Source of the DNA: a bacterium
GTDB taxonomy: Bacteria; Patescibacteriota; Minisyncoccia; UBA10092
DNA: 51,344 nucleotides
Assembly: GCA_021790275.1 (NCBI GenBank)
Contig: JAJYIB010000001.1
Span: 1 to 51,344, forward strand
Direction of reading: 5' to 3'
Below are positions 7,252 to 17,268 of the stretch, in pieces (position 1 is the stretch's first letter; every line of letters begins with the position of its first letter). The position numbers were made by a program, and so were the translations under genes. The notes under the pieces are model-generated. The model worked only from the letters and a program-made list of their open reading frames with translations, ran no database searches and was not told where the DNA came from.

Positions 7252-7563
7252 TTATAGTTTTCGAACGGAGCGATAAAAAAACACGGCAATCGGAACGCCG
7301 ACGATAATCATCGCCAAATCGAGCGCCGCGTCTCTTTGCCGCTGGCTCGTTTGATTGGCGTCGCAAACTATTTTTTGATCAATGTCTATACCTTTCGCCG
7401 CCGGAGCGGGCGCGGCCATCGGCTGAACATAGCAATTTTGATCCGCTTTGGTGAACACATAGGTTCTTAGTCCCAAATTCAAAATGCCCACCAAACCGAT
7501 AATGCTTACAACAAAAGCGACAAGAGCGAACAGCCACTTAAAAATTATTCCGATTTTACTCAT
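7252..7563 (-). CDS. small membrane protein, hypothetical
   Basis: 103 aa with an N-terminal TM helix and a C-terminal TM helix. Confidence 0.45.
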   Translation of the reverse strand: MSKIGIIFKWLFALVAFVVSIIGLVGILNLGLRTYVFTKADQNCYVQPMAAPAPAAKGIDIDQKIVCDANQTSQRQRDAALDLAMIIVGVPIAVFFYRSVRKL

Positions 7564-7762
7564 TTTGGATTTTTAATAATTATATGCGCATCGATTAAAG
7601 AAAAGCAAAACTTTCTGATCGGCTTTCGCACTCAATCGCGCGGGGTGGGGCTTGACTTCGGCTCGTGGGCAAAATCTAAATTGAAATTCTGTTATATGAT
7701 TTTGAAGGTCAGTTATGTTTTAAACAATTTTCTATTACTTTTGATTGTTTTGTAAGATTCTT

Positions 7763-8479
7763 TTAAAAATTCATCGAAGTTTTTTCCTTTCCGACAATTT
7801 TTTTGTATAAATCGGACAAATGTTTTGGAGCGGTTTTATCGCCTATTTTTATTTTCTCGTGTGCGGGATAAAAAACCGCTCTTTGTTTTAATAATTTTTG
7901 GATTCGAAAATCGTTTAAAATAATCGGAGCGATAATTTCGCTGAGGTGCCATTCAATGTGCGGAGATTCAAATTTTTTACTATCCATTTTGGGGTATAAT
8001 TTTTTCCACTTTTCAAAATATAAGAAATGGCAAGATTCATGCATAATAACCTCCATCGCATGAGATATTTTTTTATAATTATAAAAAATAGAAAAACTCC
8101 AACCGTTTAAAAACCTGTGGCAGATTGGATTTATAGAAATCATAGCCCTAATCGTTTTTCTGTTTTTAGGCCAATCGATTTGTAAAATTTCCGCAAGTGC
8201 GACAAAAAAGTCTCTTTCAATTTTTTGCCATTCTTTTTGGTATATCGTTTTCTTTGTTTCTATCAGTTTCTGATTCTTAATTTTAAATTTAACGATATAT
8301 CTTCTCAAGAATTCAATCCGTTCGGCTTCGGTTTTAAAATAAAAAACCTTTTTAATTTCAGGATGTTTTTTAATGATATATTTACCCCAACCCCATTTAT
8401 CTTGAAACAAAAAACCATATATCCAGTCAATTTCTTTGGATAAGGGGAAGTCGGTAAATTTTACCTTAGGCGTATTCAT
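7763..8479 (-). CDS. hypothetical protein with an HExxH motif
   Basis: 238-aa ORF much more AT-rich than its neighbours. It contains MHESCH, a possible zincin motif. Confidence 0.45.
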   Translation of the reverse strand: MNTPKVKFTDFPLSKEIDWIYGFLFQDKWGWGKYIIKKHPEIKKVFYFKTEAERIEFLRRYIVKFKIKNQKLIETKKTIYQKEWQKIERDFFVALAEILQIDWPKNRKTIRAMISINPICHRFLNGWSFSIFYNYKKISHAMEVIMHESCHFLYFEKWKKLYPKMDSKKFESPHIEWHLSEIIAPIILNDFRIQKLLKQRAVFYPAHEKIKIGDKTAPKHLSDLYKKIVGKEKTSMNF

Positions 8480-8547: not shown

Positions 8548-8937
8548 TTATTTCGCATTATACAACAAACACATTGCGAAGTCGGGCGAATTGAGGTTGT
8601 TACTTGCCAAATACGCTCGGCTTCTACATCCTCCCTTGCGGAGTTCGCGAAAATGACATTGCCTCACTTCTCTGCACTGGAACCCTCTGATTTTTTTGAA
8701 AACCAGAGAATTTTCCCAGATGTCTTTCAAAGAAGAATGAGTTGCGTTTCCGGCCAAGAATTCCGGATTTTCTCGCTGTGTCAAAGTCGGACAAAGCGAT
8801 ACGTTGCCGTATGCGTCAACGTACAACATTGATGAACCAACGCCGCAGGCAGGTGTTGTCCAATCCGCTATTGCATCATGACTGTCAAGAAATTCAAATA
8901 CCTTCTCAAAGAAGGCAGCACGTCGGGTAAAAGAGAG
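8548..8937 (-). pseudogene. 5'-truncated radical SAM/SPASM-domain gene remnant
   Basis: The frame is open from 8937 but encodes only a C-terminal Cys-rich SPASM/twitch-like part (PACGVGSS..VDAYGNVSLCP..GGCRSRAY). There is no CxxxCxxC core, and a stop codon lies immediately upstream. Confidence 0.55.
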
Positions 8938-9055: not shown

Positions 9056-11215
9056 ATGGAACGGGAATCATTTAAACCAACCATTGAAACCGAGCCAAAA
9101 GAGCAGCTGGAAGCTGCTATGCGTTCGAATCCTGAAGGAAAGAAAACAGAAACAAAAGAACGATCCCGGCAGGAGGTAATGGAACTCAAAGATCGCCTCC
9201 ATTTTGTCGCTAAGCTCCTTTCTAAAAATTTTGACTTAAGGGTTATCGCCGGCAGCGGCTGGGCCGCCGGTCTTTCGGAAAAATTTCAAAGAGAACGCCA
9301 GAAACACCCCGATAAGAGCTTGGAAGAACTTGACCCGAAACTTCTTACGCCAGAAGTCATGATGTACCCGGAAAAAGATTTGCTGGAACGAAGCGAGGAT
9401 TTTATCTGGGGCGTATTTCGCCATGAGATGGGTCACATCAAGCATTCGGATTATCAATCACTCATGGAAGCGCAAGAGGGCGCAAAGCAGGAGGGATATA
9501 ATCCGATGGACCTTTTTGTAATCTACGACGCATGGGAAGACGGCCGCTCTAACAATATGGAGGGTCAGACTTCTAAAACAGCGCGACATCGTCTCGGCAC
9601 TTATCTCAAAGAAGATATTTCGGAGGCATTGCTTCTCGATTTTGAAAAAAAGCCGCTCCCCATCCAGTATGGCGCTTTATGCTGGGCAAAAGGAGCGGAA
9701 TCTTTTATTGAAGGGTTTGACTTCGAAGAACTCAAGACAAGAATAAAAGACGAAAAAGTTCTTAAGGCGTTTGAAAAAACCGAAGAGGCTTTAGATGAAT
9801 ACCTTGGCGAGCGAAAAGGACGCAAAGCGTTCACTGACGTTCTCTGGCAAAAAGGATGGCCGATATTCAAAGAGCTCATAGACAAACACATTCAGGATGA
9901 AGCAAAGAAAAACCACGAACGAAAACAAAAAGGAGAAGGCGCACCACAACAGCAGCAGGGACAGCAGGGAGAAAAGGGCGAAGGAAAATCAGAGGAAGGA
10001 CAAGAAGGACAACAATCGCAGGAAGGCAAAGGCCAAAAAGGCGAGCAGAAAAAAGAGGGAAAGCAAAAACAGCCCGGTCAGCAGCCCGGCGAAAGCAAAG
10101 CGTGGGACGAACTTTCACAAGAAGAAAAAGAGCAGTATATCAAAGAAGCTCGCGAAAAGCTGACTGAAGAGGAGCGGGAATTTGTTAAGCGCATCCAGCC
10201 AAAATCAATGCAAATGAAAGAGCGCGAGGATGGCACGATTGAAGTTACTATGAAGGGTGTTTCTCCCGAAGATATCAAGCAAGCCGAACAGGCAGAAAAA
10301 GAATTTGACGAACAAAAAAAGAAAACCGAGCAAGAAGCCGGGAAATACAAAGAGGCAGCGGTCAAAGAGGTTAAAGAATCATTGGAGAAGCTAAAGGAAC
10401 GGGAAACAGGACTTACTAAAGAAGAACGCGAAAAATACGAAGAGTACTTTTCAGAAGTGAGAAAATATGTCGGCGCGTTAGTAGAAAAATTGGATGAAGT
10501 TTTTCCACCTCAGGAAGAGTCGGAATGGGAGGGCGGCCAGCGCCGAGGCAAGAGGGTTGATACAAGAAAACTCGCACGCGAAGTTCCCACTGGGCACGGC
10601 CGCGTATTTGAAAAAAAGGAAGTGCCGGAAATAAAAGAAGCAGCCTTTACTTTGCTTGTTGATGTTTCTGGCAGCATGCAGGGCAATAAAATCGAAGAAG
10701 CCCTCAAAGCCGCCATGCTTATGGCTGAAGCGTTTTCCCGCAAAGGAGTTCCTTTTGAAATCCTCGCTTTCCATGAAAAACTTCTTGAACTCAAACAATT
10801 TGAAGATGAATACTTTGGAAAAAAGAAGCTGGAATTAATGAGGGTGCTTCAGGAAGTGCAGACATCGCACGCGCGATATAATGATGATGGATATGCAGTT
10901 GACGGCGCGGCAAGACGATTGCAAAAACGGCTTTTGGCCAATGATGCACAAGGCGCACTTATTATCTTTTCAGACGGCCGGCCGGAGCCGAGTTCGACAC
11001 ACAGCGGTTCGGAGTGGGAACTGCATGGAATCGTAAACAAATGGTCGAGACAAGTTCCATTAATCGGCGTCGGTATTGGCCCGGGTATGGAATCAACGAT
11101 AAAAGAGTATTATGGTAAAAACGGGCTGCCGGTGCCGGACATTACCAAGCTCCCCCACGCGCTGCTTGATATTTTGCGAAAGCAGATCGCGCGTTTTGAA
11201 AAAAGAAATCAATAA
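9056..11215 (+). CDS. vWA-domain protein with an N-terminal HExxH metallopeptidase-like domain (partner of the MoxR-type ATPase)
   Basis: FRHEMGHIKH motif, a Q/E/K/G-rich low-complexity linker, and a C-terminal vWA domain with MIDAS DVSGSM...NDDG...SDG. No signal peptide or TM segment. Confidence 0.75.
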   Translation: MERESFKPTIETEPKEQLEAAMRSNPEGKKTETKERSRQEVMELKDRLHFVAKLLSKNFDLRVIAGSGWAAGLSEKFQRERQKHPDKSLEELDPKLLTPEVMMYPEKDLLERSEDFIWGVFRHEMGHIKHSDYQSLMEAQEGAKQEGYNPMDLFVIYDAWEDGRSNNMEGQTSKTARHRLGTYLKEDISEALLLDFEKKPLPIQYGALCWAKGAESFIEGFDFEELKTRIKDEKVLKAFEKTEEALDEYLGERKGRKAFTDVLWQKGWPIFKELIDKHIQDEAKKNHERKQKGEGAPQQQQGQQGEKGEGKSEEGQEGQQSQEGKGQKGEQKKEGKQKQPGQQPGESKAWDELSQEEKEQYIKEAREKLTEEEREFVKRIQPKSMQMKEREDGTIEVTMKGVSPEDIKQAEQAEKEFDEQKKKTEQEAGKYKEAAVKEVKESLEKLKERETGLTKEEREKYEEYFSEVRKYVGALVEKLDEVFPPQEESEWEGGQRRGKRVDTRKLAREVPTGHGRVFEKKEVPEIKEAAFTLLVDVSGSMQGNKIEEALKAAMLMAEAFSRKGVPFEILAFHEKLLELKQFEDEYFGKKKLELMRVLQEVQTSHARYNDDGYAVDGAARRLQKRLLANDAQGALIIFSDGRPEPSSTHSGSEWELHGIVNKWSRQVPLIGVGIGPGMESTIKEYYGKNGLPVPDITKLPHALLDILRKQIARFEKRNQ

Positions 11216-11218
11216 CAT

Positions 11219-12115
11219 ATGAACCCAGAAAAACTACAACCTACTCCTGAATCAGCCGAAACTTCCCGCGAAGAAGCCACTGCTTTCGAAGCTTTTGGAA
11301 AGCGCGGACAAAGACCCGGGGACCAGGAGAAGAAAGAACCGCAAATTGAATCCGAGCAAGCTATCTCTCTTGCCCGCGAAGTGGAAGAGGCGTTTGCTCG
11401 GAACGATTTTAACGCGGCTTTAGATAAACTTCGCGAACTTCAACGCACGACATCTCCCGAAGGAGTCGTTGAGAGCGAGCACCACGAACAGCTACTTAAA
11501 GAATTCGAACGCCAAGTCGCCACACTTTCAAAACGAGAATACGCAAAGGCGGCCAAAATGAAGCCGGATGAATTTGCAAGGCTTTTCGGACCGCTTAAAG
11601 AACATATCCGCGAAATCGCCCAGCGCGCAAAAGAAACTAAAGAAAAAGAAGGGCATATTCCATTTATTATTGTTATCAAAAACGATGTCATCGGCGGCGA
11701 AAAAGCCATGCCACTCATAGAGCTTGAGGGCAAAAAGGGATATACAGACATGAGCGCGGACGCTATCAAAGGATGTAAACCATATGAAGTAAAGCTTCCC
11801 GAAGGCAAGGCATATCTTGCGATTGATATTGAAACAGGCAAAACCACTCTTGGCAAAACTCCAGATGAAGCAATCAAACAAATCAAAAAAGACAACCGCT
11901 CGGCACTCACTGTGGAAGAAGCGGTTGCTCTCATCACTCATCACCCTGAAATTCTTAAAGATCACTATGTTTGGGCTAGTGGCTCTCGCCACGGCGCCGA
12001 CAAGGTCGCGTATTTGTGGCTCTACGAGGGTGAGCCGAGGCTCCACTGGCTCAGCTCGGACTACTCGGATGCGGAGTGGGGCTCGGCCTCCTGCGGTAGT
12101 AGAGTTGGGCCTTGA
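11219..12115 (+). CDS. DGR variable (target) protein 1
   Basis: 298 aa. The last ~41 codons are VR1. It is a paralog of 13885-14781 and starts 3 nt after the vWA stop. Confidence 0.85.
   Translation: MNPEKLQPTPESAETSREEATAFEAFGKRGQRPGDQEKKEPQIESEQAISLAREVEEAFARNDFNAALDKLRELQRTTSPEGVVESEHHEQLLKEFERQVATLSKREYAKAAKMKPDEFARLFGPLKEHIREIAQRAKETKEKEGHIPFIIVIKNDVIGGEKAMPLIELEGKKGYTDMSADAIKGCKPYEVKLPEGKAYLAIDIETGKTTLGKTPDEAIKQIKKDNRSALTVEEAVALITHHPEILKDHYVWASGSRHGADKVAYLWLYEGEPRLHWLSSDYSDAEWGSASCGSRVGP
11979..12100 (+). repeat. DGR variable region VR1
   Basis: A 122-nt match to the reverse complement of the TR (16517-16638). There are 11 mismatches, all at TR adenines. Confidence 0.9.
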
Positions 12116-12177
12116 TGCTTGGATGCTTGTCCCTCTTGTTTCTTGATATTTGATTTCCGCGAAAATTTTTTTAGAGG
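12101..12177 (+). repeat. 77-nt VR-flanking block, copy 1 (candidate target-recognition/IMH-distal element)
   Basis: 100% identical to 14767-14843. Contains the target stop codon and a tandem GATGCTTG GATGCTTG. Confidence 0.8.
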
Positions 12178-12229
12178 ATCCGCAAATCAAGTTGATAAAA
12201 TAACAAAATTAAACTATAATTTAATCAAT

Positions 12230-13876
12230 ATGCGCGAAGGCTTTCCAACAATTGAACGATTTGAGGCATTCAAGCCAGAGGATGCCGAAAAACTCTCGGA
12301 GATTACCCGTATCCGAGAAGATCTTTTGAAATCCGAAGCTTTGCCAAAAGAGGCAAAGGATATTTTATCTGGCATCAAAGTCCAAGAAAAATCCAAAGAA
12401 GTTTTTGAAGCTCTGGAAACGCACGAGCAGGAAAAAGAAACTATCGGGGTAAGCGAGCAAGAAAAAGAAGTGCGTATCGGCCGGGAAACAACCCCAATTT
12501 TCGAAGGGCCGACAGAAAAGCTGACTTGGCAGCTTCAAGCCGAGCAATTCCGAGAACAAGGCCAGACAATGGTTGAGCTGGCTTTTAAGCGCAATGACGG
12601 CGTAGAGGTAAAGCCGGGCGGCGTTGCCAGAGGCAAGACAAGATTCGGCGAATATGAACGCTATCTCCCGCTGGAAGAATATAAAGCTCTCAAAAAAGAA
12701 AATTCAAAATATCTGGATGCGGTTGATAAAATAACAAGCGGCGATGAAAAAGAACGACAAGCCGCCGAAGAATATCTAACCAAATTCAAACAGGATCACC
12801 CCAAATCCGAGTGGGTGCTTCGCGCCATGCGCCATCTCAATTCCCTTGCGGTTCACGAATCCTGCGAAACGCTTGAGCGAGATCCATATTTCGTGGAAAC
12901 CCCGTATGTGGTTGAGACAATGGAAAAACTTACACGCCTTATCAATCGCCAGCGCGAGCGGCAACAGGGAATCGTAATCATTGAAGGTGATGCCGGTACT
13001 GGAAAAAATAAAATCGTTGACCACCTCGCCTATCTCACCAAACGGCCGGTATTTCGTTTTACTTGTTCAGCCGGCAAAGACGAACAGGATTTGAAGTATC
13101 TTTTGGAATATGATGCCAAAAAAGGCACTTACCGCATTAAGTCCACCGTCATTGAAGCTCTGGAAACCCCGGGCGCAGTTCTTGAATTTGACGAAATCAA
13201 CACCTTAAAACCCGAGGTTGCTAAAATACTGAACTCTCTTTTTGACCACGACCGCGCACTTTTCTTGGGCGAAGATCGGACATCGGTAAAAGCGGCCGAA
13301 GAAGTGGTTATGGTCGGACTTCAAAATCCCCAACACTATATGGGAGTCAAACCGCTTACCGAAACTATCAAATCCCGAGCCCGCATTATGGAAGTTGGCT
13401 ATCCGCCGTTTGAAAAAGAAAAAGCGAGTCCTAACGAGCAAACACAATATCGTTCCGACGAAGCACTTATCGTTCGCCAATATATCCCCGAACTCAAAGA
13501 TTTGGATCAAAGAGAGTTTCAAATTCTTTGGGATTCGGTTGTAAACAAGAAAGAAGATCCCCGGGCGCACGAACTCCTAACAAGCGCAAGAAAAGAGCGG
13601 ATCGAGGATGTGAAAGAAGTTGTGGAGATGGCAAATAAGATTCGTGAGGCTTATCGGGCTTACCACGAAGGCAAATCAGATGAGCCAATCAAATTCGTCT
13701 TTAGTTTGCGCGAATCTGTTGAGTGTGCTTTTGAGCTTCCTCATGTTGAATTGACCGCCGAGGAAAAAAGAAAGGGTATTACCCGCGCTAAAAAAGCGGT
13801 GCAGGAAGTTGTTTTGCCAAAGATTCCGCTTGGCGAAGAGCGCACCTATCTTCAAAGCCTTGTTGCCGAACTCTAA
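12230..13876 (+). CDS. AAA+ ATPase, MoxR/AAA_5-like
   Basis: Walker A (IIEGDAGTGKNK), Walker B (VLEFDEIN), sensor-like GLQNP and SRARI. The start was moved to the ATG at 12230 because 12119-12229 is the conserved VR flank. Confidence 0.8.
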   Translation: MREGFPTIERFEAFKPEDAEKLSEITRIREDLLKSEALPKEAKDILSGIKVQEKSKEVFEALETHEQEKETIGVSEQEKEVRIGRETTPIFEGPTEKLTWQLQAEQFREQGQTMVELAFKRNDGVEVKPGGVARGKTRFGEYERYLPLEEYKALKKENSKYLDAVDKITSGDEKERQAAEEYLTKFKQDHPKSEWVLRAMRHLNSLAVHESCETLERDPYFVETPYVVETMEKLTRLINRQRERQQGIVIIEGDAGTGKNKIVDHLAYLTKRPVFRFTCSAGKDEQDLKYLLEYDAKKGTYRIKSTVIEALETPGAVLEFDEINTLKPEVAKILNSLFDHDRALFLGEDRTSVKAAEEVVMVGLQNPQHYMGVKPLTETIKSRARIMEVGYPPFEKEKASPNEQTQYRSDEALIVRQYIPELKDLDQREFQILWDSVVNKKEDPRAHELLTSARKERIEDVKEVVEMANKIREAYRAYHEGKSDEPIKFVFSLRESVECAFELPHVELTAEEKRKGITRAKKAVQEVVLPKIPLGEERTYLQSLVAEL

Positions 13877-13884
13877 TTATTATT

Positions 13885-14781
13885 ATGAGCGTTGAAAAAC
13901 CACAATTTACTCCTCAAGAATCCGCAGAAGGAGAAGTCAAAACAGAATTTGAAGCGTTTTTTAAAGATAAAAGCAAAAAAGGACAAAAAGAAGAGCCGGA
14001 AGAAGTGAAAGAACGAAAAGCCGAGCTTGAACAAAAAGCCGTGACGCTCGCTCAAGAAGCCGAGCGGGCGTTTTCTTCAAACGACTTAACGCAAGCCCTC
14101 GAAAAACTCCGCGAATTGCAGCGCACCGTCGGAATGGAGATGGTTGAAAACCGCGAACAATATGAAAAATTCGAGCAGGAGTTTAATCGCCAAATAGATA
14201 ATCTCTCCAAGAAAGGATTTCCCAAGCTTGCCGGCATGGATGAGAAAAAATTCGCCGCGATATTCGAACCATTAAAGGAGAAACTTAAGGAACTTTCCTC
14301 GCGGGAGTTTCAAGAAGGCCGAATTCCATTCGTAGTCGTTCCGCGAGACAAACTTCTTGCTTTAGAAAAGCAAATGCCTCTTGTTGAACTTGAAGGTAAA
14401 AAGGGATCTACGGGCTTTGACGATGTATCCGGATACTTCACCACCGCCAAGGGCGTTGAAATCCCGGAAGCGATGGCATATCTCGTAGTAGACATCGAAA
14501 ACGGCAAAGTCATGCTCGGGAAAAGCGCAGATGAGGCGGTAAAACAATTCAAAAAAGAAGGACGTTCTCCGCTTACCGCCGATGAAGGCGTCGCACTAAT
14601 ACTCCAGCACCCGGAAATTCTTAAAGATCATTCGCTGGACTTGCCCGGCTCTCGCCGCGGCGCCGACAGGGTCGCGGGTTTGTGGCTCTACGGGGGTGAG
14701 CCGGGGCTCAGCTGGAGCAGCTCGGACTACTCGGATGCGAGGTGGGGCTCGGCCTCCTGCGGTAGTAGAGTTGGGCCTTGA
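13885..14781 (+). CDS. DGR variable (target) protein 2
   Basis: 298-aa paralog of 11219-12115 with VR2 at its C-terminus. Starts 8 nt after the ATPase stop. Confidence 0.85.
   Translation: MSVEKPQFTPQESAEGEVKTEFEAFFKDKSKKGQKEEPEEVKERKAELEQKAVTLAQEAERAFSSNDLTQALEKLRELQRTVGMEMVENREQYEKFEQEFNRQIDNLSKKGFPKLAGMDEKKFAAIFEPLKEKLKELSSREFQEGRIPFVVVPRDKLLALEKQMPLVELEGKKGSTGFDDVSGYFTTAKGVEIPEAMAYLVVDIENGKVMLGKSADEAVKQFKKEGRSPLTADEGVALILQHPEILKDHSLDLPGSRRGADRVAGLWLYGGEPGLSWSSSDYSDARWGSASCGSRVGP
14647..14766 (+). repeat. DGR variable region VR2
   Basis: A 120-nt match to the reverse complement of the TR. There are 15 mismatches, all at TR adenines (13 A->G, 2 A->T). Confidence 0.9.
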
Positions 14782-14843
14782 TGCTTGGATGCTTGTCCCT
14801 CTTGTTTCTTGATATTTGATTTCCGCGAAAATTTTTTTAGAGG
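14767..14843 (+). repeat. 77-nt VR-flanking block, copy 2
   Basis: Identical to 12101-12177. Confidence 0.8.
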
Positions 14844-14907: not shown

Positions 14908-15035
14908 TGCTGCCTACAATATCGAATACGCGCACGCGAGGTTATCTGCCTTCTTAAGGGCCCGATTGCGGCCTGAAAGGGGCAGCCGACCTCCACAATC
15001 GGTGCGCCTCGGTGCATTCGATATTGTGGGCAGCA
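14908..15035. other. 128-nt multi-stem element closed by a 20-bp inverted repeat (structured RNA or MITE-like)
   Basis: TGCTGCCTACAATATCGAAT (14908-14927) pairs with ATTCGATATTGTGGGCAGCA (15016-15035) with one transition. Nested stems CGATT/AATCG, CTGCC/GGCAG and GCAC(G)CGAGG/CCTCGGTGC. Abuts the RT stop codon. Confidence 0.45.
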
Positions 15036-15037
15036 GG

Positions 15038-16114
15038 CTACGGCTGTCCCTTTTTTGTTTGGTCTGAAGGTTCTTTCACCCACTGCCAAAACTGCTGATG
15101 AAGCTTCTCTCTTAATTTATGGCTGTCGGCATGGACAAGAAACCCCATGTAAGAATCAAACGATCTCAAAAGGGATTCCTCGCTGATCAACCCAGCCTTA
15201 AATTGTTTGACCTTATAGCGCAGTTTTCTGAAAATTCTTCTGCGAACTTTTGCGCGAGGAACGCGAGCGTACGGCAAAGAAACATAACCCAAATAATCGA
15301 TTCCTTGCCGCAACTTGCGAATTTCCACTTTATTGGGATGAAGGGACAGATCAAGATGTGTTCTCAAAAAATCTGAAATTTTGTCTTTCAGCGAAGCGAG
15401 ATATTGATCGTCATGATGGAGAATCACAAAATCATCCGTATATCGAAGGTAATATTTCACTTTGAGGTCATGCTTCACGAACTGATCCAATTCATTCATG
15501 TAAATATTGGCGAACATCTGCGAGGTAAGATTGCCGATGGGCGCTCCTTTAATGCCGAGTCTCTGGTCGGCATCGGACGCGAAACTTCCAATGATTACTC
15601 CGACCAAATCCAAAACATCCTGATCTTTAATTTTGCGACCGATGATCTCCAGAAGGATTTGATGGTCAATGGTCGGAAAAAATTGCCGAATGTCGCACTT
15701 GAGCGCAAAGCATCCGCCTTTCGTTTGAAAAACTTTTCGTGCGTAAACGCCGAGCTGCTTCACCCCCTTATGGGTTCCCTTTTCTTTCCTGCAAGAATAA
15801 GAATCGGGAATAAAGGTCGACTCAAAAATGGGGTTAATAACGCGGAAAACCGCGTGATGGACGATTCTGTCGCGGACGGTGGCTTTGTGAATATGCCTCA
15901 ACTTCGGATCGCGGACATAAAAATCGACATACTCGCCATGCCGATATCTTTTATGGATCAGGCCGCGGTGAAGTTTAAAGAGGTTATCTCCCAAATGCCG
16001 CTCAAAAAGCTGGACATCGGCTTTTTTCCGCTTTTCTCTTTTGAAATCGTCCCACGCTTCGAGGAGATTCTCTGTTGAGACGATTTGCTCGAATAGTTTT
16101 CTGTAAACTTTCAT
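15038..16114 (-). CDS. DGR reverse transcriptase
   Basis: YTDD catalytic box (YLRYTDDFVIL) and the DGR-type IGNLTSQ motif in place of the group II/retron SP motif. 358 aa. Confidence 0.9.
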   Translation of the reverse strand: MKVYRKLFEQIVSTENLLEAWDDFKREKRKKADVQLFERHLGDNLFKLHRGLIHKRYRHGEYVDFYVRDPKLRHIHKATVRDRIVHHAVFRVINPIFESTFIPDSYSCRKEKGTHKGVKQLGVYARKVFQTKGGCFALKCDIRQFFPTIDHQILLEIIGRKIKDQDVLDLVGVIIGSFASDADQRLGIKGAPIGNLTSQMFANIYMNELDQFVKHDLKVKYYLRYTDDFVILHHDDQYLASLKDKISDFLRTHLDLSLHPNKVEIRKLRQGIDYLGYVSLPYARVPRAKVRRRIFRKLRYKVKQFKAGLISEESLLRSFDSYMGFLVHADSHKLREKLHQQFWQWVKEPSDQTKKGQP

Positions 16115-16474
16115 ATGAGAAATTTAGATCAATTAAACAACGATGCTCCGATTCTTAAACATACCATCGATCTCTACAAGGAACTCTACGGATATCTGAA
16201 AACATTTCCGAAAAAAGATCAGTATCTGCTCGGAAAGCAAATCGAAGAGCATGTGCTGGTTTTCTTGGAGCTGATCCTGATGGCCGCCGGAATGCAAAGG
16301 TTGCAAAAGTTGGAAGTCCTTGAGCAAGCCAACGGAAAATACGAGGTCTTCAAGGTGCTGCTGTATGTGGCTCGCGAGATGAAGATGATCAACAACGAAA
16401 AGTATCTTTCGGCGGAAGCAAAGGCACAAGAAATCGGAATGCAGCTTGGCGGATGGATACGCTCTTTGAGATAG
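16115..16474 (+). CDS. avd: Avd-like accessory variability determinant (four-helix-bundle, 23S rRNA IVS-protein family)
   Basis: 119 aa with an Avd-like pattern (..YGYLKTFPKKDQYLLGKQIEEH...EIGMQLGGWIRSL). Sits directly beside the RT. Confidence 0.75.
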   Translation: MRNLDQLNNDAPILKHTIDLYKELYGYLKTFPKKDQYLLGKQIEEHVLVFLELILMAAGMQRLQKLEVLEQANGKYEVFKVLLYVAREMKMINNEKYLSAEAKAQEIGMQLGGWIRSLR

Positions 16475-16475
16475 C

Positions 16476-16503
16476 GAAAGGCGTCCTTTCGAGGACGCCT
16501 TTC
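16476..16503. terminator. perfect hairpin between the avd stop and the TR (candidate bidirectional terminator or DGR RNA element)
   Basis: GAAAGGCGTCC(T)-TTCG-(A)GGACGCCTTTC, a 12-bp stem with a UUCG loop on plus (CGAA on minus). T-rich sequence follows on plus, and TTTCGC follows on minus. Confidence 0.6.
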
Positions 16504-16516
16504 TATGATTTAAACG

Positions 16517-16638
16517 ACTACCGCAGGAGGCCGAGCCCCACTTCGCATTCGAGTTGTCCGAGTTGTTCCAGTTGAGCTTCGGCTTACCCTCGTTGAGCCA
16601 CAAATTCGCGACCTTGTCGGCGCCGTGGCGAGAGCCAC
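16517..16638 (-). repeat. DGR template region (TR)
   Basis: The minus strand matches VR1 and VR2. It contains 27 adenines, mostly in AAC/AAT/AAG codons (..NLWLNEGKPKLNWNNSDNSNAKWGSASCGSR). It is not part of a long ORF: a TAA lies 3 codons upstream. Confidence 0.9.
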
Positions 16639-17073
16639 ACCGGCATTACTGCTTCCCAACCGAGCCACCGAAGATCGAGCTTTACTTCCCGCTGGAAGCG
16701 GACCTATAAGCTTTCACTCCTGAATTTAATACGGCGGCAGGCCGAGCTTTTGGCTCTTGCCACCCGCGCTAGGAAACAGTAAGTAGTAGCTAAAATCTCA
16801 CTGCACGCTCATGACGACCGTAATCGCCATGATTCTGGCAAGTTTGCTGAGAGTTCAGGATTTCGGCGACCGCGGACCGTAATCCGCGATGCAGTAGCCT
16901 ACTTTCATACGTAAAATAGCACTCCAAGATTATTTTTACAATTATAAAATAAATAAACAAAATGGCAGTAAAGTTCAACTGCTGGTTTTTATTCAACTCA
17001 TTATCAGCGCAAGCCACTCGGATCACAGCTCACTCGCTATCACTCGGGTCATATCGATAATAAATTTTCTTGA
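16639..17073 (-). promoter_or_regulatory. 435-nt non-coding leader between tRNA-Glu and the TR, with twin hairpins
   Basis: No credible ORF. On the minus strand, CGCGGA-UUACGG-UCCGCG (about 16868-16885) and AUGGCGA-UUACGG-UCGUCAU (about 16811-16830) share the same loop. An AT-rich promoter-like stretch with TATAAT lies around 16940-16990. Confidence 0.4.
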
Positions 17074-17146
17074 CAGCCCCGACGGGATTCGAACCCGTGT
17101 CGCTTGGATGAGAACCAAGTATCCTGAACCGCTAGACGACAGGGCC
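17074..17146 (-). tRNA. tRNA-Glu (anticodon CUC)
   Basis: Manual cloverleaf: GGCCCUG acceptor, anticodon loop UUCUCAU, T-loop UUCGAAU. No CCA is encoded. Confidence 0.88.
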
Positions 17147-17268
17147 GGATTAAATTTGCGGAATCTTCGCCCGCTCTCCCGTTCGCGCGGATTTGAATTT
17201 CGAATCCGCGATTTATTATAAACCAAACCGGTTGCTTCCGGCAACTTTTTGTGCCATAATTTCGCATA

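What the first reader, a model, noticed from the sequence alone, without database searches (positions are those of the whole stretch)
9056..14781. MoxR-type AAA+ ATPase and vWA/HExxH protein, each followed by its own DGR-hypermutated paralog: a candidate intracellular adaptive sensor/conflict system
**Gene order.** Four co-directional, tightly packed genes:
- 9056-11215: an HEMGH zincin-like N-domain, a long Q/E/K/G linker and a C-terminal vWA domain with MIDAS DVSGSM.
- 11219-12115: variable protein 1, starting 3 nt after the previous stop.
- 12230-13876: an AAA+ ATPase with Walker A GDAGTGKN and Walker B LEFDEIN.
- 13885-14781: variable protein 2, starting 8 nt after the previous stop.

**Established.** MoxR ATPase plus vWA partner is a known two-component remodelling module. 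DGRs are known to be frequent in CPR genomes.

**What stands out.**
- The two halves of that module are interleaved with two separately diversified ligand-binding paralogs served by one TR.
- None of the four proteins shows a signal peptide or TM helix.

**Inference.** This is an ATP-driven cytosolic complex whose recognition subunits are continuously re-randomised. It may sense phage or host factors and signal through the metallopeptidase-like domain.

I cannot tell from memory whether this exact architecture has been described.
Basis: partly seen in the sequence, partly recalled or inferred. Interest (0 to 1): 0.9.

Follow-up and report, generated by a model that had tools for sequence, protein, structure and literature searches.

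The report
DGR-diversified lectin-fold adaptors on MoxR–vWA machine
A candidate-phyla-radiation bacterium carries a conserved four-gene cassette in which a MoxR-like ATPase and its metallopeptidase-like/vWA partner are each followed by a small cytosolic lectin-fold protein whose tip is rewritten by a neighbouring diversity-generating retroelement. This extends a recently proposed kind of "hypervariable sensor plus ATPase" system to these tiny bacteria.

Summary
Four tightly packed + strand genes encode an HExxH-domain/vWA protein, variable protein VP1, an AAA_5 (MoxR/CbbQ/midasin-like) ATPase and variable protein VP2.

One template repeat (16517-16638, - strand) lies next to an intact DGR reverse transcriptase and Avd. 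It matches both variable regions, and all 26 mismatches fall at template adenines.

The interleaved order recurs. Complete cassettes occur in at least four other Patescibacteria loci, and partial ones on about ten short contigs. They carry two unrelated variable-region types that share one N-terminal helical domain. Two otherwise identical contigs differ at 12 variable-region positions, all at template adenines, so relatives are active.

VP is a DUF5701 protein with a C-type-lectin-like fold. The ATPase/vWA pair also exists without VPs or a DGR, so the VPs are add-on modules. The pair structurally resembles phage "CobS/CobT-like" MoxR plus metallopeptidase-vWA pairs.

DGR-diversified lectin domains linked to MoxR-vWA systems are already published for cyanobacteria and proteobacteria, and AAA-lectin fusions for CPR. 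This is therefore a new variant of a known kind.

A sensor or conflict role, and signalling through the peptidase-like domain, remain inference.

The parts
9056..11215 (+). 719-aa protein with three regions: an N-terminal HExxH (metallopeptidase-like) domain at aa ~35-290, a Q/E/K/G-rich linker, and a C-terminal vWA domain with a MIDAS motif
   Evidence: Pfam CobT_C 5e-11 and VWA 9e-6. PDB CobT 4e-6. H123, E124, H127, E161 and D162 are conserved. The AF2 model has pLDDT 83. It matches the N-terminal parts of phage CobT-like/VWFA proteins with probability 1.0.
9422..9436 (+). HEMGH motif (aa 123-127)
10661..10675 (+). MIDAS DxSxS motif, DVSGS (aa 536-540)
11219..12115 (+). Variable protein 1 (298 aa): disordered N-terminus with an FEAF motif, a helical domain (aa 42-137), and a DUF5701 / C-type-lectin-like domain (aa ~146-298)
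   Evidence: Pfam DUF5701 5.8e-30. AF2 pLDDT 77. Foldseek top hit is the Bd2740 C-terminal domain, a C-type-lectin-fold variant, with probability 1.0 (PMC10769870).
11979..12100 (+). VR1
   Evidence: 91% match to the TR; 11/11 mismatches at TR adenines
12101..12177 (+). Conserved segment at and after the 3' end of VR1, repeated after VR2. It holds the end of the homology and the non-coding flank.
   Evidence: Direct repeat 11981-12177 / 14647-14843 at 94%. No significant hairpin.
12230..13876 (+). 548-aa MoxR-like AAA+ ATPase (AAA_5 core at aa 249-383) with family-specific N- and C-terminal regions
   Evidence: Pfam AAA_5 1e-19. PDB midasin 2e-19, CbbQ 4e-10 and NorQ 8e-7. Sources name close homologs 'MoxR-like ATPase'.
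12986..13009 (+). Walker A GDAGTGKN (Asn in place of Ser/Thr)
13178..13195 (+). Walker B VLEFDE
13885..14781 (+). Variable protein 2 (298 aa), a paralog of VP1 (53% aa identity)
   Evidence: Pfam DUF5701 3e-31; blastp
14647..14766 (+). VR2
   Evidence: 88% match to the TR; 15/15 mismatches at TR adenines
14908..15035 (-). Long structured hairpin element between the VP2 stop and the RT stop. Whether it belongs to the system is uncertain.
   Evidence: dG -66 kcal/mol, z -4.8. Conserved with compensatory changes in L048. Absent from L046, L047 and L001.
15038..16114 (-). DGR reverse transcriptase (358 aa), with IGNLTSQ and YTDD motifs
   Evidence: Pfam RVT_1 8e-20. PHROG reverse transcriptase 4e-113. 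Motifs.
16115..16474 (+). Avd accessory protein (119 aa), divergent from the RT
   Evidence: Pfam bAvd 1.5e-14. NCBIfam DivGenRetAVD 1.6e-18 (below the curated cut-off). PHROG Avd.
16476..16503 (.). 12-bp GC-rich hairpin between the avd stop and the 3' end of the TR
   Evidence: z -3.9
16517..16638 (-). Template repeat (TR), on the RT strand and inverted relative to both VRs. It has 27 adenines and seven AAC/AAT plus four AAG codons in frame.

Best explanation
**What it is.** A chromosomal four-gene module of a Patescibacteria (CPR) bacterium, joined to a complete diversity-generating retroelement.

**The core.** The core is a two-component MoxR-type machine.
- One part is an AAA_5 ATPase.
- The other is a partner protein whose C-terminal vWA/MIDAS domain is fused to an N-terminal HExxH (metallopeptidase-like) domain.
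- The pair is of the 'CobS/CobT-like' kind also seen in phages.

**The add-ons.** Onto this core two paralogous small proteins have been added, VP1 after the vWA gene and VP2 after the ATPase gene. Each has:
- a disordered acidic N-terminus;
- a conserved helical domain, the presumed docking part;
- a C-terminal C-type-lectin-like DUF5701 domain.

**The diversification.** The last ~40 codons of each VP are rewritten by mutagenic retrohoming from one TR. About 16 variable codons give roughly 5e15 possible variants per protein.

**Inferred mechanism.** The VPs act as interchangeable, hypervariable ligand-recognition subunits in the cytosol. They bring bound ligands to the ATPase/vWA machine, or report them to it. 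The machine then remodels or, if the HExxH domain is active, cleaves something.

**Shown versus inferred.**
- Shown: gene identities, DGR anatomy, adenine-specific variation, recurrence of the order, recent activity in a close relative, and the lectin-like fold.
- Inferred: physical complex formation, the direction of information flow, peptidase activity, and the biological role. That role could be defence against phage, interaction with the host cell, or something else.
For: **DGR anatomy and adenine bias**

**Recurrence**
- The same order (vWA, VP, AAA, VP, plus RT/Avd/TR serving two VRs) occurs in L046 and L048.
- With a different VR type it occurs in L002 (= L050) and L005.
- Partial cassettes lie on L001, L043-L045, L047, L049, L053, L056 and L058.

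**Positional orthology**
- VP1-like genes always follow the vWA gene and VP2-like genes always follow the ATPase gene.
- X/X and Y/Y pairs are more alike than X/Y pairs in the second type.

**Modularity**
- The two VP types share only the N-terminal ~100-170 aa (E 1e-8 to 1e-10), while their C-terminal variable domains are unrelated.
- A small N-terminal module sits on the ATPase in the VP-less loci L051, L052 and L055, but on the X protein in L002, L057 and L004.

**Coupling**
- Gene spacing is tight, 3 and 8 nt.

**Activity**
- L046 and L047 are 100% identical over the ATPase and over the RT/Avd/TR.
- They differ at 12 VR positions, all at TR adenines.

**Folds and family assignments**
- VP C-domain resembles the C-type-lectin-fold protein Bd2740 (PMC10769870).
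- A protein kinase-DUF5701 fusion exists.
- The ATPase resembles midasin, CbbQ and NorQ. The vWA domain resembles CobT.
- MIDAS and HExxH residues are conserved.

**Location and precedent**
- No TM helix or signal peptide is apparent.
- The analogous idea is published for other phyla (PMC7159879, PMC10907252).
Against: - No direct evidence of protein-protein contact; no multimer prediction could be run.
- None of the four proteins matches any PADLOC defence model.
- In the window the cassette is flanked by housekeeping genes. Only some relatives sit beside restriction-modification, toxin-antitoxin or integrase genes.
- The zincin assignment is weak. PDB Foldseek hits have E about 1.4, Pfam M48 has E 0.03, below the cut-off, and the profile search against PDB sequences found nothing.
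- The Walker A motif has Asn instead of Ser/Thr in all 90 homologs, so ATPase competence is unproven.
- Three other assemblies of this genome carry identical VRs.
- Close ATPase/vWA pairs work without VPs (L051, L052, L055). The VPs could therefore equally be clients rather than sensors.
Confidence: 0.55

Rival explanations
1. The VPs are clients, not sensors. The MoxR-like ATPase and the metallopeptidase-vWA co-chaperone fold, assemble or proteolytically mature the hypervariable proteins. For example, the pair could recognise their disordered FEAF-containing N-termini through the MIDAS site. The matured VPs would then act elsewhere, for instance in attachment of the episymbiont to its host.
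For: - MoxR-vWA pairs are chaperone/co-chaperone systems. A phage MoxR plus metallopeptidase-vWA pair has been proposed to assemble and process virion proteins (PMC7824862).
- The N-domain model matches the N-terminal parts of such phage CobT-like proteins.
- VP N-termini are predicted to be disordered and carry a conserved short motif.
- Each VP gene is translationally adjacent to one machine gene.
Against: - The VPs have no export signal.
- The pair exists without VPs in close relatives, so it must have other substrates.
- The same motif also occurs on the ATPase itself.
Confidence: 0.2
2. The cassette is a remnant of, or a cargo from, a phage. CobS/CobT-like pairs are common in phages, and DGRs classically diversify receptor-binding proteins. 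On this view the VPs are virion or tail-tip proteins, and the pair is a virion assembly chaperone.
For: - PHROG hits: the ATPase to phrog_249 (2.7e-16), and the vWA protein to phrog_1576, 5298 and 17276.
- BFVD structural matches to phage CobT-like proteins.
- A lectin fold like that of Mtd (PMC10769870).
- L002 has an integrase and a methylase nearby.
Against: - No VP relative was found in 2.9 million IMG/VR contigs. The ATPase has only distant hits there, at most 33% identity over the core alone.
- One weak VP hit and no ATPase relative of note in GenBank phages.
- No phage structural genes flank the cassette in the window.
- The pair is widespread in CPR chromosomes.
- No att repeat was found at the adjacent tRNA-Glu.
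Confidence: 0.07
3. The adjacency has no functional meaning. A DGR with two targets merely inserted into, and was inherited with, an unrelated ATPase/vWA operon.
For: The pair occurs alone in L051, L052 and L055 and in many distant CPR loci. DUF5701 proteins occur alone elsewhere.
Against: - The interleaved order is conserved with positional orthology across loci that are only 60-70% identical.
- It is conserved across two unrelated VR-domain types that share the same N-terminal domain.
- Domains are exchanged between the ATPase and the X protein.
- The intergenic gaps are 3 and 8 nt.
Confidence: 0.05
4. The pair is a genuine CobS/CobT-type metal chelatase or metal-insertion chaperone (as for CobNST, NorQD and CbbQO), with the VPs unrelated to that job.
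For: Best named hits are CobT and, for the ATPase, CbbQ/NorQ.
Against: - The NCBIfam CobT equivalog score is 32 against a cut-off of 759.
- No CobN-like partner appears among the neighbouring genes.
- The HExxH N-domain and the interleaved hypervariable genes are unexplained by this model.
Confidence: 0.03

Closest known systems
VMAP-ternary MoxR-vWA conflict systems with DGR-diversified FGS/C-type-lectin domains (Kaur et al. 2020, PMC7159879; Dore et al. 2024, PMC10907252)
   Same: - A MoxR-clade ATPase plus a vWA protein, next to a DGR whose target is a C-terminal lectin-fold domain.
- Mostly cytoplasmic targets.
- Effector-type peptidase domains can be fused to the vWA protein.
- The proposed logic of a hypervariable sensor coupled to an ATPase.
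   Different: - Here the variable lectin domain is not fused to the vWA protein. It sits on two separate small proteins interleaved with the two machine genes.
- No VMAP protein is present.
- The lectin domain is DUF5701, not the TvpA-like FGS type.
- The host is a CPR bacterium, whereas the published systems are tied to multicellular cyanobacteria and proteobacteria.
- The DGR has the CPR-type divergent RT/avd layout with the TR inverted relative to the VRs. Its RT clade was not determined here.
CPR DGR targets with an AAA/midasin-like ATPase fused to the variable domain (Wu et al. 2018 class UVR4, PMC5758913; Paul et al. 2017 as summarised in PMC10907252)
   Same: - CPR host.
- A midasin/AAA_5-like ATPase associated with a DGR variable region.
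[quoted passage not shown]
   Different: - Here the ATPase and the variable domain are separate genes.
- A vWA/HExxH partner is present.
- There are two paralogous targets.
- I could not read Paul et al. 2017, so I cannot exclude that this split form is shown there.
Phage and bacterial 'CobS/CobT-like' MoxR plus metallopeptidase-vWA pairs (Iyer et al. 2021, PMC7824862; phrog_249 with phrog_1576/5298/17276)
   Same: - Two-gene ATPase plus vWA pair.
- The vWA protein is ~600-800 aa, with an N-terminal domain that the AF2 model matches structurally and a C-terminal CobT_C-type vWA domain.
   Different: - Sequence similarity to phage proteins is confined to the vWA domain.
- No DGR or variable proteins are described with the phage pairs.
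- The CPR family has the GKN Walker A motif.
Midasin/Rea1, CbbQ-CbbO, NorQ-NorD and RavA-ViaA (characterised MoxR-clade ATPase plus MIDAS systems)
   Same: The AAA_5 core is most similar to midasin, CbbQ and NorQ. The general principle also applies: a MIDAS domain grips an acidic peptide of a client while the ring supplies force.
   Different: Different clients and domain contexts; none uses hypervariable adaptors.

Membership tests
Diversity-generating retroelement (DGR) | Reverse transcriptase of DGR type ([ILV]GxxxSQ and YxDD motifs) | tested here: met
   RVT_1 8e-20; PHROG RT 4e-113; IGNLTSQ at aa 193 and YTDD at aa 225
Diversity-generating retroelement (DGR) | TR/VR pair whose differences lie at TR adenines | tested here: met
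   11/11 and 15/15 mismatches at adenines, p about 1e-17
Diversity-generating retroelement (DGR) | Accessory protein Avd | tested here: met
   Pfam bAvd 54.8 bits against a cut-off of 40. The NCBIfam DivGenRetAVD score of 66.9 is below its cut-off of 80.
Diversity-generating retroelement (DGR) | VR at the C-terminus of a target with a C-type-lectin-type fold | tested here: met
   The VR covers the last ~40 codons. The AF2 model's best PDB match is the C-type-lectin-fold variant Bd2740 (probability 1.0, E 0.011, target-normalised TM 0.65), followed by classical C-type lectins.
Diversity-generating retroelement (DGR) | Ongoing mutagenic retrohoming (VR variation within a population) | tested here: inconclusive
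   Shown for a relative: L046 and L047 differ at 12 sites, all at TR adenines. For this genome, three other assemblies have identical VRs, and read-level data are not available.
MoxR-clade AAA+ ATPase | AAA_5-type core similar to MoxR/CbbQ/NorQ/midasin | tested here: met
   AAA_5 71 bits against a cut-off of 22; midasin 2e-19, CbbQ 4e-10, NorQ 8e-7
MoxR-clade AAA+ ATPase | Canonical Walker A GxxxxGK[ST] and Walker B hhhhDE | tested here: inconclusive
   Walker B is present. Walker A is GDAGTGKN, with Asn for Ser/Thr, in all 90 homologs. Activity cannot be judged from sequence.
MoxR-clade AAA+ ATPase | Helix-2 insert and pre-sensor-1 hairpin | not tested
   No structure prediction quota was left for the ATPase.
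MoxR-clade AAA+ ATPase | Adjacent vWA-domain partner gene | tested here: met
   A vWA gene lies in the same operon here and in most homologous loci.
vWA / MIDAS domain | vWA fold with a DxSxS MIDAS motif and a downstream acidic ligand | tested here: met
   VWA 26.4 bits against a cut-off of 23.8, and CobT_C 43 against 21. D, S and S are conserved, and the SDG motif is conserved.
Zincin metallopeptidase | HExxH plus a third ligand on a zincin fold | tested here: inconclusive
   - H123, E124, H127, E161 and D162 are invariant or nearly so.
- Foldseek PDB best hits are the minigluzincins selecase and jannalysin, but at E about 1.4.
- Pfam M48 has E 0.03, below the cut-off.
- BFVD gives weak SprT, M48 and IrrE hits, and strong hits only to uncharacterised phage CobT-like N-domains.
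VMAP-ternary conflict system (Kaur et al. 2020) | A third component carrying the VMAP domain | tested here: not met
   No VMAP family is among the Pfam hits of any of the four proteins, even at E up to 10 for the VP N-terminus. The third component here is DUF5701.
VMAP-ternary conflict system (Kaur et al. 2020) | Variable FGS/lectin domain fused to the vWA protein | tested here: not met
   The vWA protein ends with the vWA domain. The variable domains are on separate genes.
Cobaltochelatase CobS/CobT | Equivalog-level similarity to CobT, and the presence of CobN | tested here: not met
   TIGR01651 scores 31.8 against a cut-off of 759. No CobN-like gene appears among the neighbours.
Pfam DUF5701 | Match above the gathering threshold over the full profile | tested here: met
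   105 and 109 bits against a cut-off of 27.4, covering profile positions 2-204 of 206. The family has 1448 representatives.
Known anti-phage defence systems (PADLOC) | Any of the four proteins matches a PADLOC model | tested here: not met
   Zero hits for the vWA protein, VP1, the ATPase and VP2. Only the RT matches generic RT models.

The most novel reading that the evidence does not exclude
The VPs are programmable substrate adaptors. Each randomised lectin tip captures an arbitrary cytosolic protein, for instance from a phage or taken up from the host cell. Its conserved helical domain or FEAF peptide then hands the captured protein to a MoxR-type unfoldase. That unfoldase is coupled through the MIDAS domain to a zinc peptidase. 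The result would be an anticipatory, antibody-like targeted remodelling or proteolysis system in unicellular CPR bacteria. It would be independent of the VMAP systems of multicellular bacteria.
Probability: 0.15. Interest if true: 0.85.

Novelty: new variant of a known kind. Interest (0 to 1): 0.6.

Why it matters
- **An open question.** What CPR DGRs diversify, and where those proteins act, is unresolved. A large survey noted that CPR targets lack membrane or recognisable domains and asked whether they are truly non-membrane proteins (bioRxiv 10.1101/2020.04.01.020958).
- **What this cassette adds.** It gives one large CPR target family (DUF5701) a fold, a cytosolic setting and two conserved partners, which can be tested biochemically.
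- **A published link it qualifies.** It places a DGR next to a MoxR-vWA pair in unicellular CPR bacteria, whereas such couplings have been tied to multicellular bacteria (PMC7159879, PMC10907252).
- **Possible use.** If the VPs are adaptors for an ATP-driven remodeller or peptidase, the system would be a compact natural scaffold for evolving intracellular binders coupled to an output.

Tried and rejected
- **Prophage or island origin.** IMG/VR scans found no VP relatives and only distant ATPase cores. GenBank phages gave almost nothing for VP and the ATPase. No att-like repeat of the neighbouring tRNA-Glu was found.
- **Hairpin after the VRs, as in the Bordetella phage.** Folding of the conserved post-VR flank is no better than shuffled sequence.
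- **Sequence-level proof that the N-domain is a peptidase.** A profile of 12 N-domains against PDB sequences found nothing relevant.
- **VR variation within this genome.** Three further assemblies are 100% identical over 9.8 kb, including both VRs, so this is uninformative.
- **DUF5701 fused to an ATPase or vWA domain.** None was found among the best 150 of 1448 representatives; only a protein kinase fusion turned up.
- **Paul et al. 2017.** The paper could not be read. The supplements of Wu et al. 2018 are not held.
- **Rfam.** Nothing matched in the DGR region apart from the tRNA.
- **Similarity between the long N-terminal extensions of distant ATPases (~1120 aa) and the VPs.** No BLAST or Pfam link was found.

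Full report
**1. The observation**

Pfam assigns:
- CobT_C/VWA to the C-terminus of the 719-aa protein;
- AAA_5 (1e-19) to the 548-aa protein;
- DUF5701 (6e-30 and 3e-31) to both 298-aa proteins;
- RVT_1 to 15038-16114(-);
- bAvd to 16115-16474(+).

The quoted motifs are present: HEMGH, DVSGS, GDAGTGKN and VLEFDE.

A 122-nt template repeat at 16517-16638 lies on the RT strand and is inverted relative to both variable regions, VR1 (11979-12100) and VR2 (14647-14766).
- All 11 and all 15 mismatches fall at template adenines. With 22% A in the TR, the chance probability is about 1e-17.
- In frame, the TR carries seven AAC/AAT and four AAG codons. About 16 variable codons allow roughly 5e15 protein variants per target.
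- The RT has the DGR-type IGNLTSQ motif and YTDD.

None of the four proteins has a hydrophobic stretch compatible with a TM helix or a signal peptide.

**2. Where it comes from**

The window is a public contig. The same 9.8 kb occurs, 100% identical, in GCA_027334625.1 (DAHWUL010000005.1) and in two ENA assemblies.

Flanking genes are housekeeping: recR, L21 and a signal peptide peptidase on one side; tRNA-Glu, a hydrolase, murF and ddl on the other.

The closest homologs are named Patescibacteria, Ca. Portnoybacteria and Ca. Lloydbacteria.

**3. What the parts are**

*ATPase.*
- Its core is most similar to midasin AAA domains (2e-19), CbbQ and NorQ, so it belongs to the MoxR clade in the broad sense.
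- Its Walker A lysine is followed by Asn instead of Ser/Thr in all 90 homologs retrieved.

*vWA protein.*
- The vWA domain is CobT-like and the MIDAS residues are conserved.
- The N-terminal 300 aa fold confidently (pLDDT 83).
- H123, E124, H127, E161 and D162 are invariant or nearly so.
- Against the PDB the best matches are the minimal gluzincins selecase and jannalysin, but only weakly (E about 1.4). Pfam gives a sub-threshold M48 hit.
- Against predicted viral structures the model matches, with probability 1.0, the N-terminal parts of 580-810-aa phage 'CobT / VWFA' proteins.
- The whole protein therefore has the architecture Iyer et al. described for a phage MoxR partner, 'vWA fused to an N-terminal metallopeptidase domain' (PMC7824862).
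- I treat the zincin assignment as likely but unproven.

*Variable proteins.* Each has:
- a disordered N-terminus;
- a helical domain (aa 42-137);
- a mixed alpha/beta C-terminal domain, whose best PDB match is Bd2740 (probability 1.0). Bd2740 was solved as a C-type-lectin-fold variant, and its only trimerisation homologue is the DGR target Mtd (PMC10769870).

*The DUF5701 family.*
- It is large: 1448 representatives at 50% identity.
- Its C-termini fall into two flavours. One is conserved, 'GWCWxGNPHTWLGSASC', and lies outside DGRs (for example). The other is variable, '...WGSASCGSR'.
- One member is fused to a Ser/Thr kinase.

**4. Recurrence**

I anchored on the ATPase and fetched 34 genome loci and 77 metagenome loci. 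I then scored them with the window's proteins and an adenine-bias repeat detector.

| Group | Loci | What they carry |
|---|---|---|
| Complete cassettes, DUF5701 type | window, L046, L048 | vWA, VP, AAA, VP, plus RT(-)/Avd(+)/TR(-) with two adenine-biased VRs |
| Complete cassettes, second VR type ('...GVCPAR') | L002 (= L050), L005 | same order; DGR core upstream instead of downstream |
| Partial copies on short contigs | L001, L043-L045, L047, L049, L053, L056, L058 | consistent fragments of the same order |
| Pair only, ATPase 60-75% identical | L051, L052, L055 | ATPase/vWA pair, no VP, no DGR |
| Decayed copies | L003, L004 | truncated VP remnants |
| Distant CPR (Microgenomates, Magasanikbacteria, Peregrinibacteria) | many | ~750-aa vWA protein plus ~1120-aa ATPase, no DGR |

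- VP1-like genes always follow the vWA gene, and VP2-like genes always follow the ATPase gene.
- The two VP types share only the N-terminal region.
- A ~70-aa N-terminal module sits on the ATPase in VP-less loci, but on the X protein in L002, L057 and L004.

Together these patterns argue that the VPs are modular add-ons that work with the pair, not chance neighbours.

**5. Activity**

- L046 and L047 are 100% identical over 1.87 kb of the ATPase gene and over 2.2 kb of RT/Avd/TR. They differ at 12 positions in the VR, every one at a TR adenine. This is direct evidence of recent retrohoming in a close relative (ATPase 90% identical to the window's).
- For the window's own genome the available assemblies are identical, so current activity is not shown.
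- In the second cassette type the RT is truncated (L005) or absent (L002), and a few non-adenine mismatches have accumulated. This suggests decay, or reliance on an RT elsewhere in the genome.

**6. Mechanism**

*Shown.* A MoxR-type ATPase, a MIDAS-bearing partner with an HExxH domain, and two cytosolic lectin-fold proteins with DGR-randomised tips, all in a conserved operon.

*Inferred.* This follows from what is established for MoxR-vWA systems: the MIDAS site grips an extended acidic peptide, and the AAA ring supplies force (as summarised in PMC7159879).
- The VP helical domain or its disordered N-terminus docks on the pair.
- The randomised tip supplies specificity.
- The machine remodels or cleaves.

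Whether the VPs are sensors or adaptors (my preferred reading, 0.55) or clients of a chaperone-peptidase (0.2) cannot be decided here. Phage origin, chance adjacency and a chelatase role are disfavoured.

A conflict role is suggested only by analogy and by the restriction-modification, toxin-antitoxin and integrase genes beside L003 and L002. PADLOC has no model for any of the four proteins.

**7. Comparison with the literature**

- Kaur et al. (PMC7159879) and Dore et al. (PMC10907252) described DGR-diversified lectin domains in MoxR-vWA-VMAP systems of cyanobacteria and proteobacteria. There the variable domain is usually fused to the vWA protein, and the systems are tied to multicellularity.
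[quoted passage not shown] 2017).
- Wu et al. (PMC5758913) found a CPR target class (UVR4) matching the midasin AAA domain. [quoted passage not shown]
- Roux et al. (bioRxiv 10.1101/2020.04.01.020958) left open whether CPR targets are truly non-membrane proteins.
- Searches of the held library found no paper describing this split, interleaved cassette or DUF5701. I could not read Paul et al. 2017.

**8. Verdict**

The finding is real, recurrent and coherent. It is a new variant of a known kind, not a new category. Interest is moderate to high.

Three points make it worth follow-up:
- It gives a large CPR DGR target family a fold and partners.
- It places DGR-MoxR-vWA coupling in unicellular CPR bacteria.
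- It is directly testable.

Noticed in passing
window 14908-15035 (between the VP2 stop and the RT stop); L048 ~7490-7630: A ~128-nt long hairpin (RNA dG -66 kcal/mol, z -4.8). It is conserved in L048 with an identical outer stem and apical 'CTGAAAGGGGCAGCCG'. The middle stem shows compensatory changes (ATATCGAAT/ATTCGATAT against TTGACTG/CAGTCAA). It is absent from L046, L047 and L001, single-copy in the window, and has no Rfam match.
   Followed up: partly
window 12986-13009 (ATPase aa 253-260): Walker A is GDAGTGKN, with Asn replacing the usual Ser/Thr after the lysine. This holds in all 90 homologs retrieved, including ~930-aa Aquificae proteins. The retrieval was word-based, so it is biased toward this motif.
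   Followed up: partly
window 11282-11293 (VP1 aa 22-25), 13948-13959 (VP2 aa 22-25), 12260-12271 (ATPase aa 11-14): The short motif FEAF recurs in the disordered N-termini of VP1, VP2 and the ATPase. Related ESF/SFEA motifs occur at the N-termini of vWA homologs and of the second-type VPs. It is a candidate docking peptide or MIDAS ligand.
   Followed up: partly
L051 9716-11491, L052 5881-7629, L055 4325-6424; L002 8694-9884, L057 8634-9731, L004 3233-3631: A ~70-aa N-terminal module ('F(E)xVVF...KIMVL...YKVRV..DTKP..GK.IVEIV') sits on the ATPase in VP-less loci, but on the protein between the vWA and ATPase genes in other loci.
   Followed up: partly
L046 2795-2862 vs L047: Besides the 12 VR differences, these two otherwise identical contigs differ at 17 positions within 70 nt near codons 25-48 of the VP2-like gene. 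This is outside any TR homology. The cause is unknown; strain recombination or assembly are possibilities.
   Followed up: no
L002 5818-6127; L005 5383-6490: In the second cassette type the DGR core looks decayed. L002 keeps the TR and a 45-aa Avd remnant but no RT within 10 kb. L005 matches only RT residues 1-182.
   Followed up: partly
L018 7622-12366 (Saccharibacteria MAG): A vWA protein (740 aa) and a short ATPase (376 aa) are followed by two paralogous small proteins (226 and 210 aa, 29% identical). They have no Pfam match and no DGR, and may be a non-diversified counterpart of the adaptor pair.
   Followed up: no
window 17072-17147 (-): tRNA-Glu(CTC) lies ~430 nt beyond the TR. No direct repeat of its 3' end was found at the other side of the cassette.
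   Followed up: yes
window 7763-8479 (-) and 8548-8829 (-): Just upstream of the cassette are two ORFs. One is a 238-aa ORF with an HESCH (HExxH) motif and no family match. The other is a 93-aa ORF matching only the SPASM iron-sulfur domain, which looks like a fragment of a radical-SAM maturase.
   Followed up: no
P0347 (556 aa); DUF5701 family at large: DUF5701 has 1448 representatives at 50% identity. Most are ~200-250-aa stand-alone proteins with a conserved 'GWCWxGNPHTWLGSASC' C-terminus outside DGRs. One is fused to a Ser/Thr protein kinase.
   Followed up: partly
L003 2669-11117; L002 12938-14936: Some relatives of the cassette sit next to a RelE/HTH toxin-antitoxin pair, Fic, a type I restriction R subunit with YgjP, DUF6119, a C5 methylase and a phage-type integrase. 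The window's own cassette does not.
   Followed up: partly
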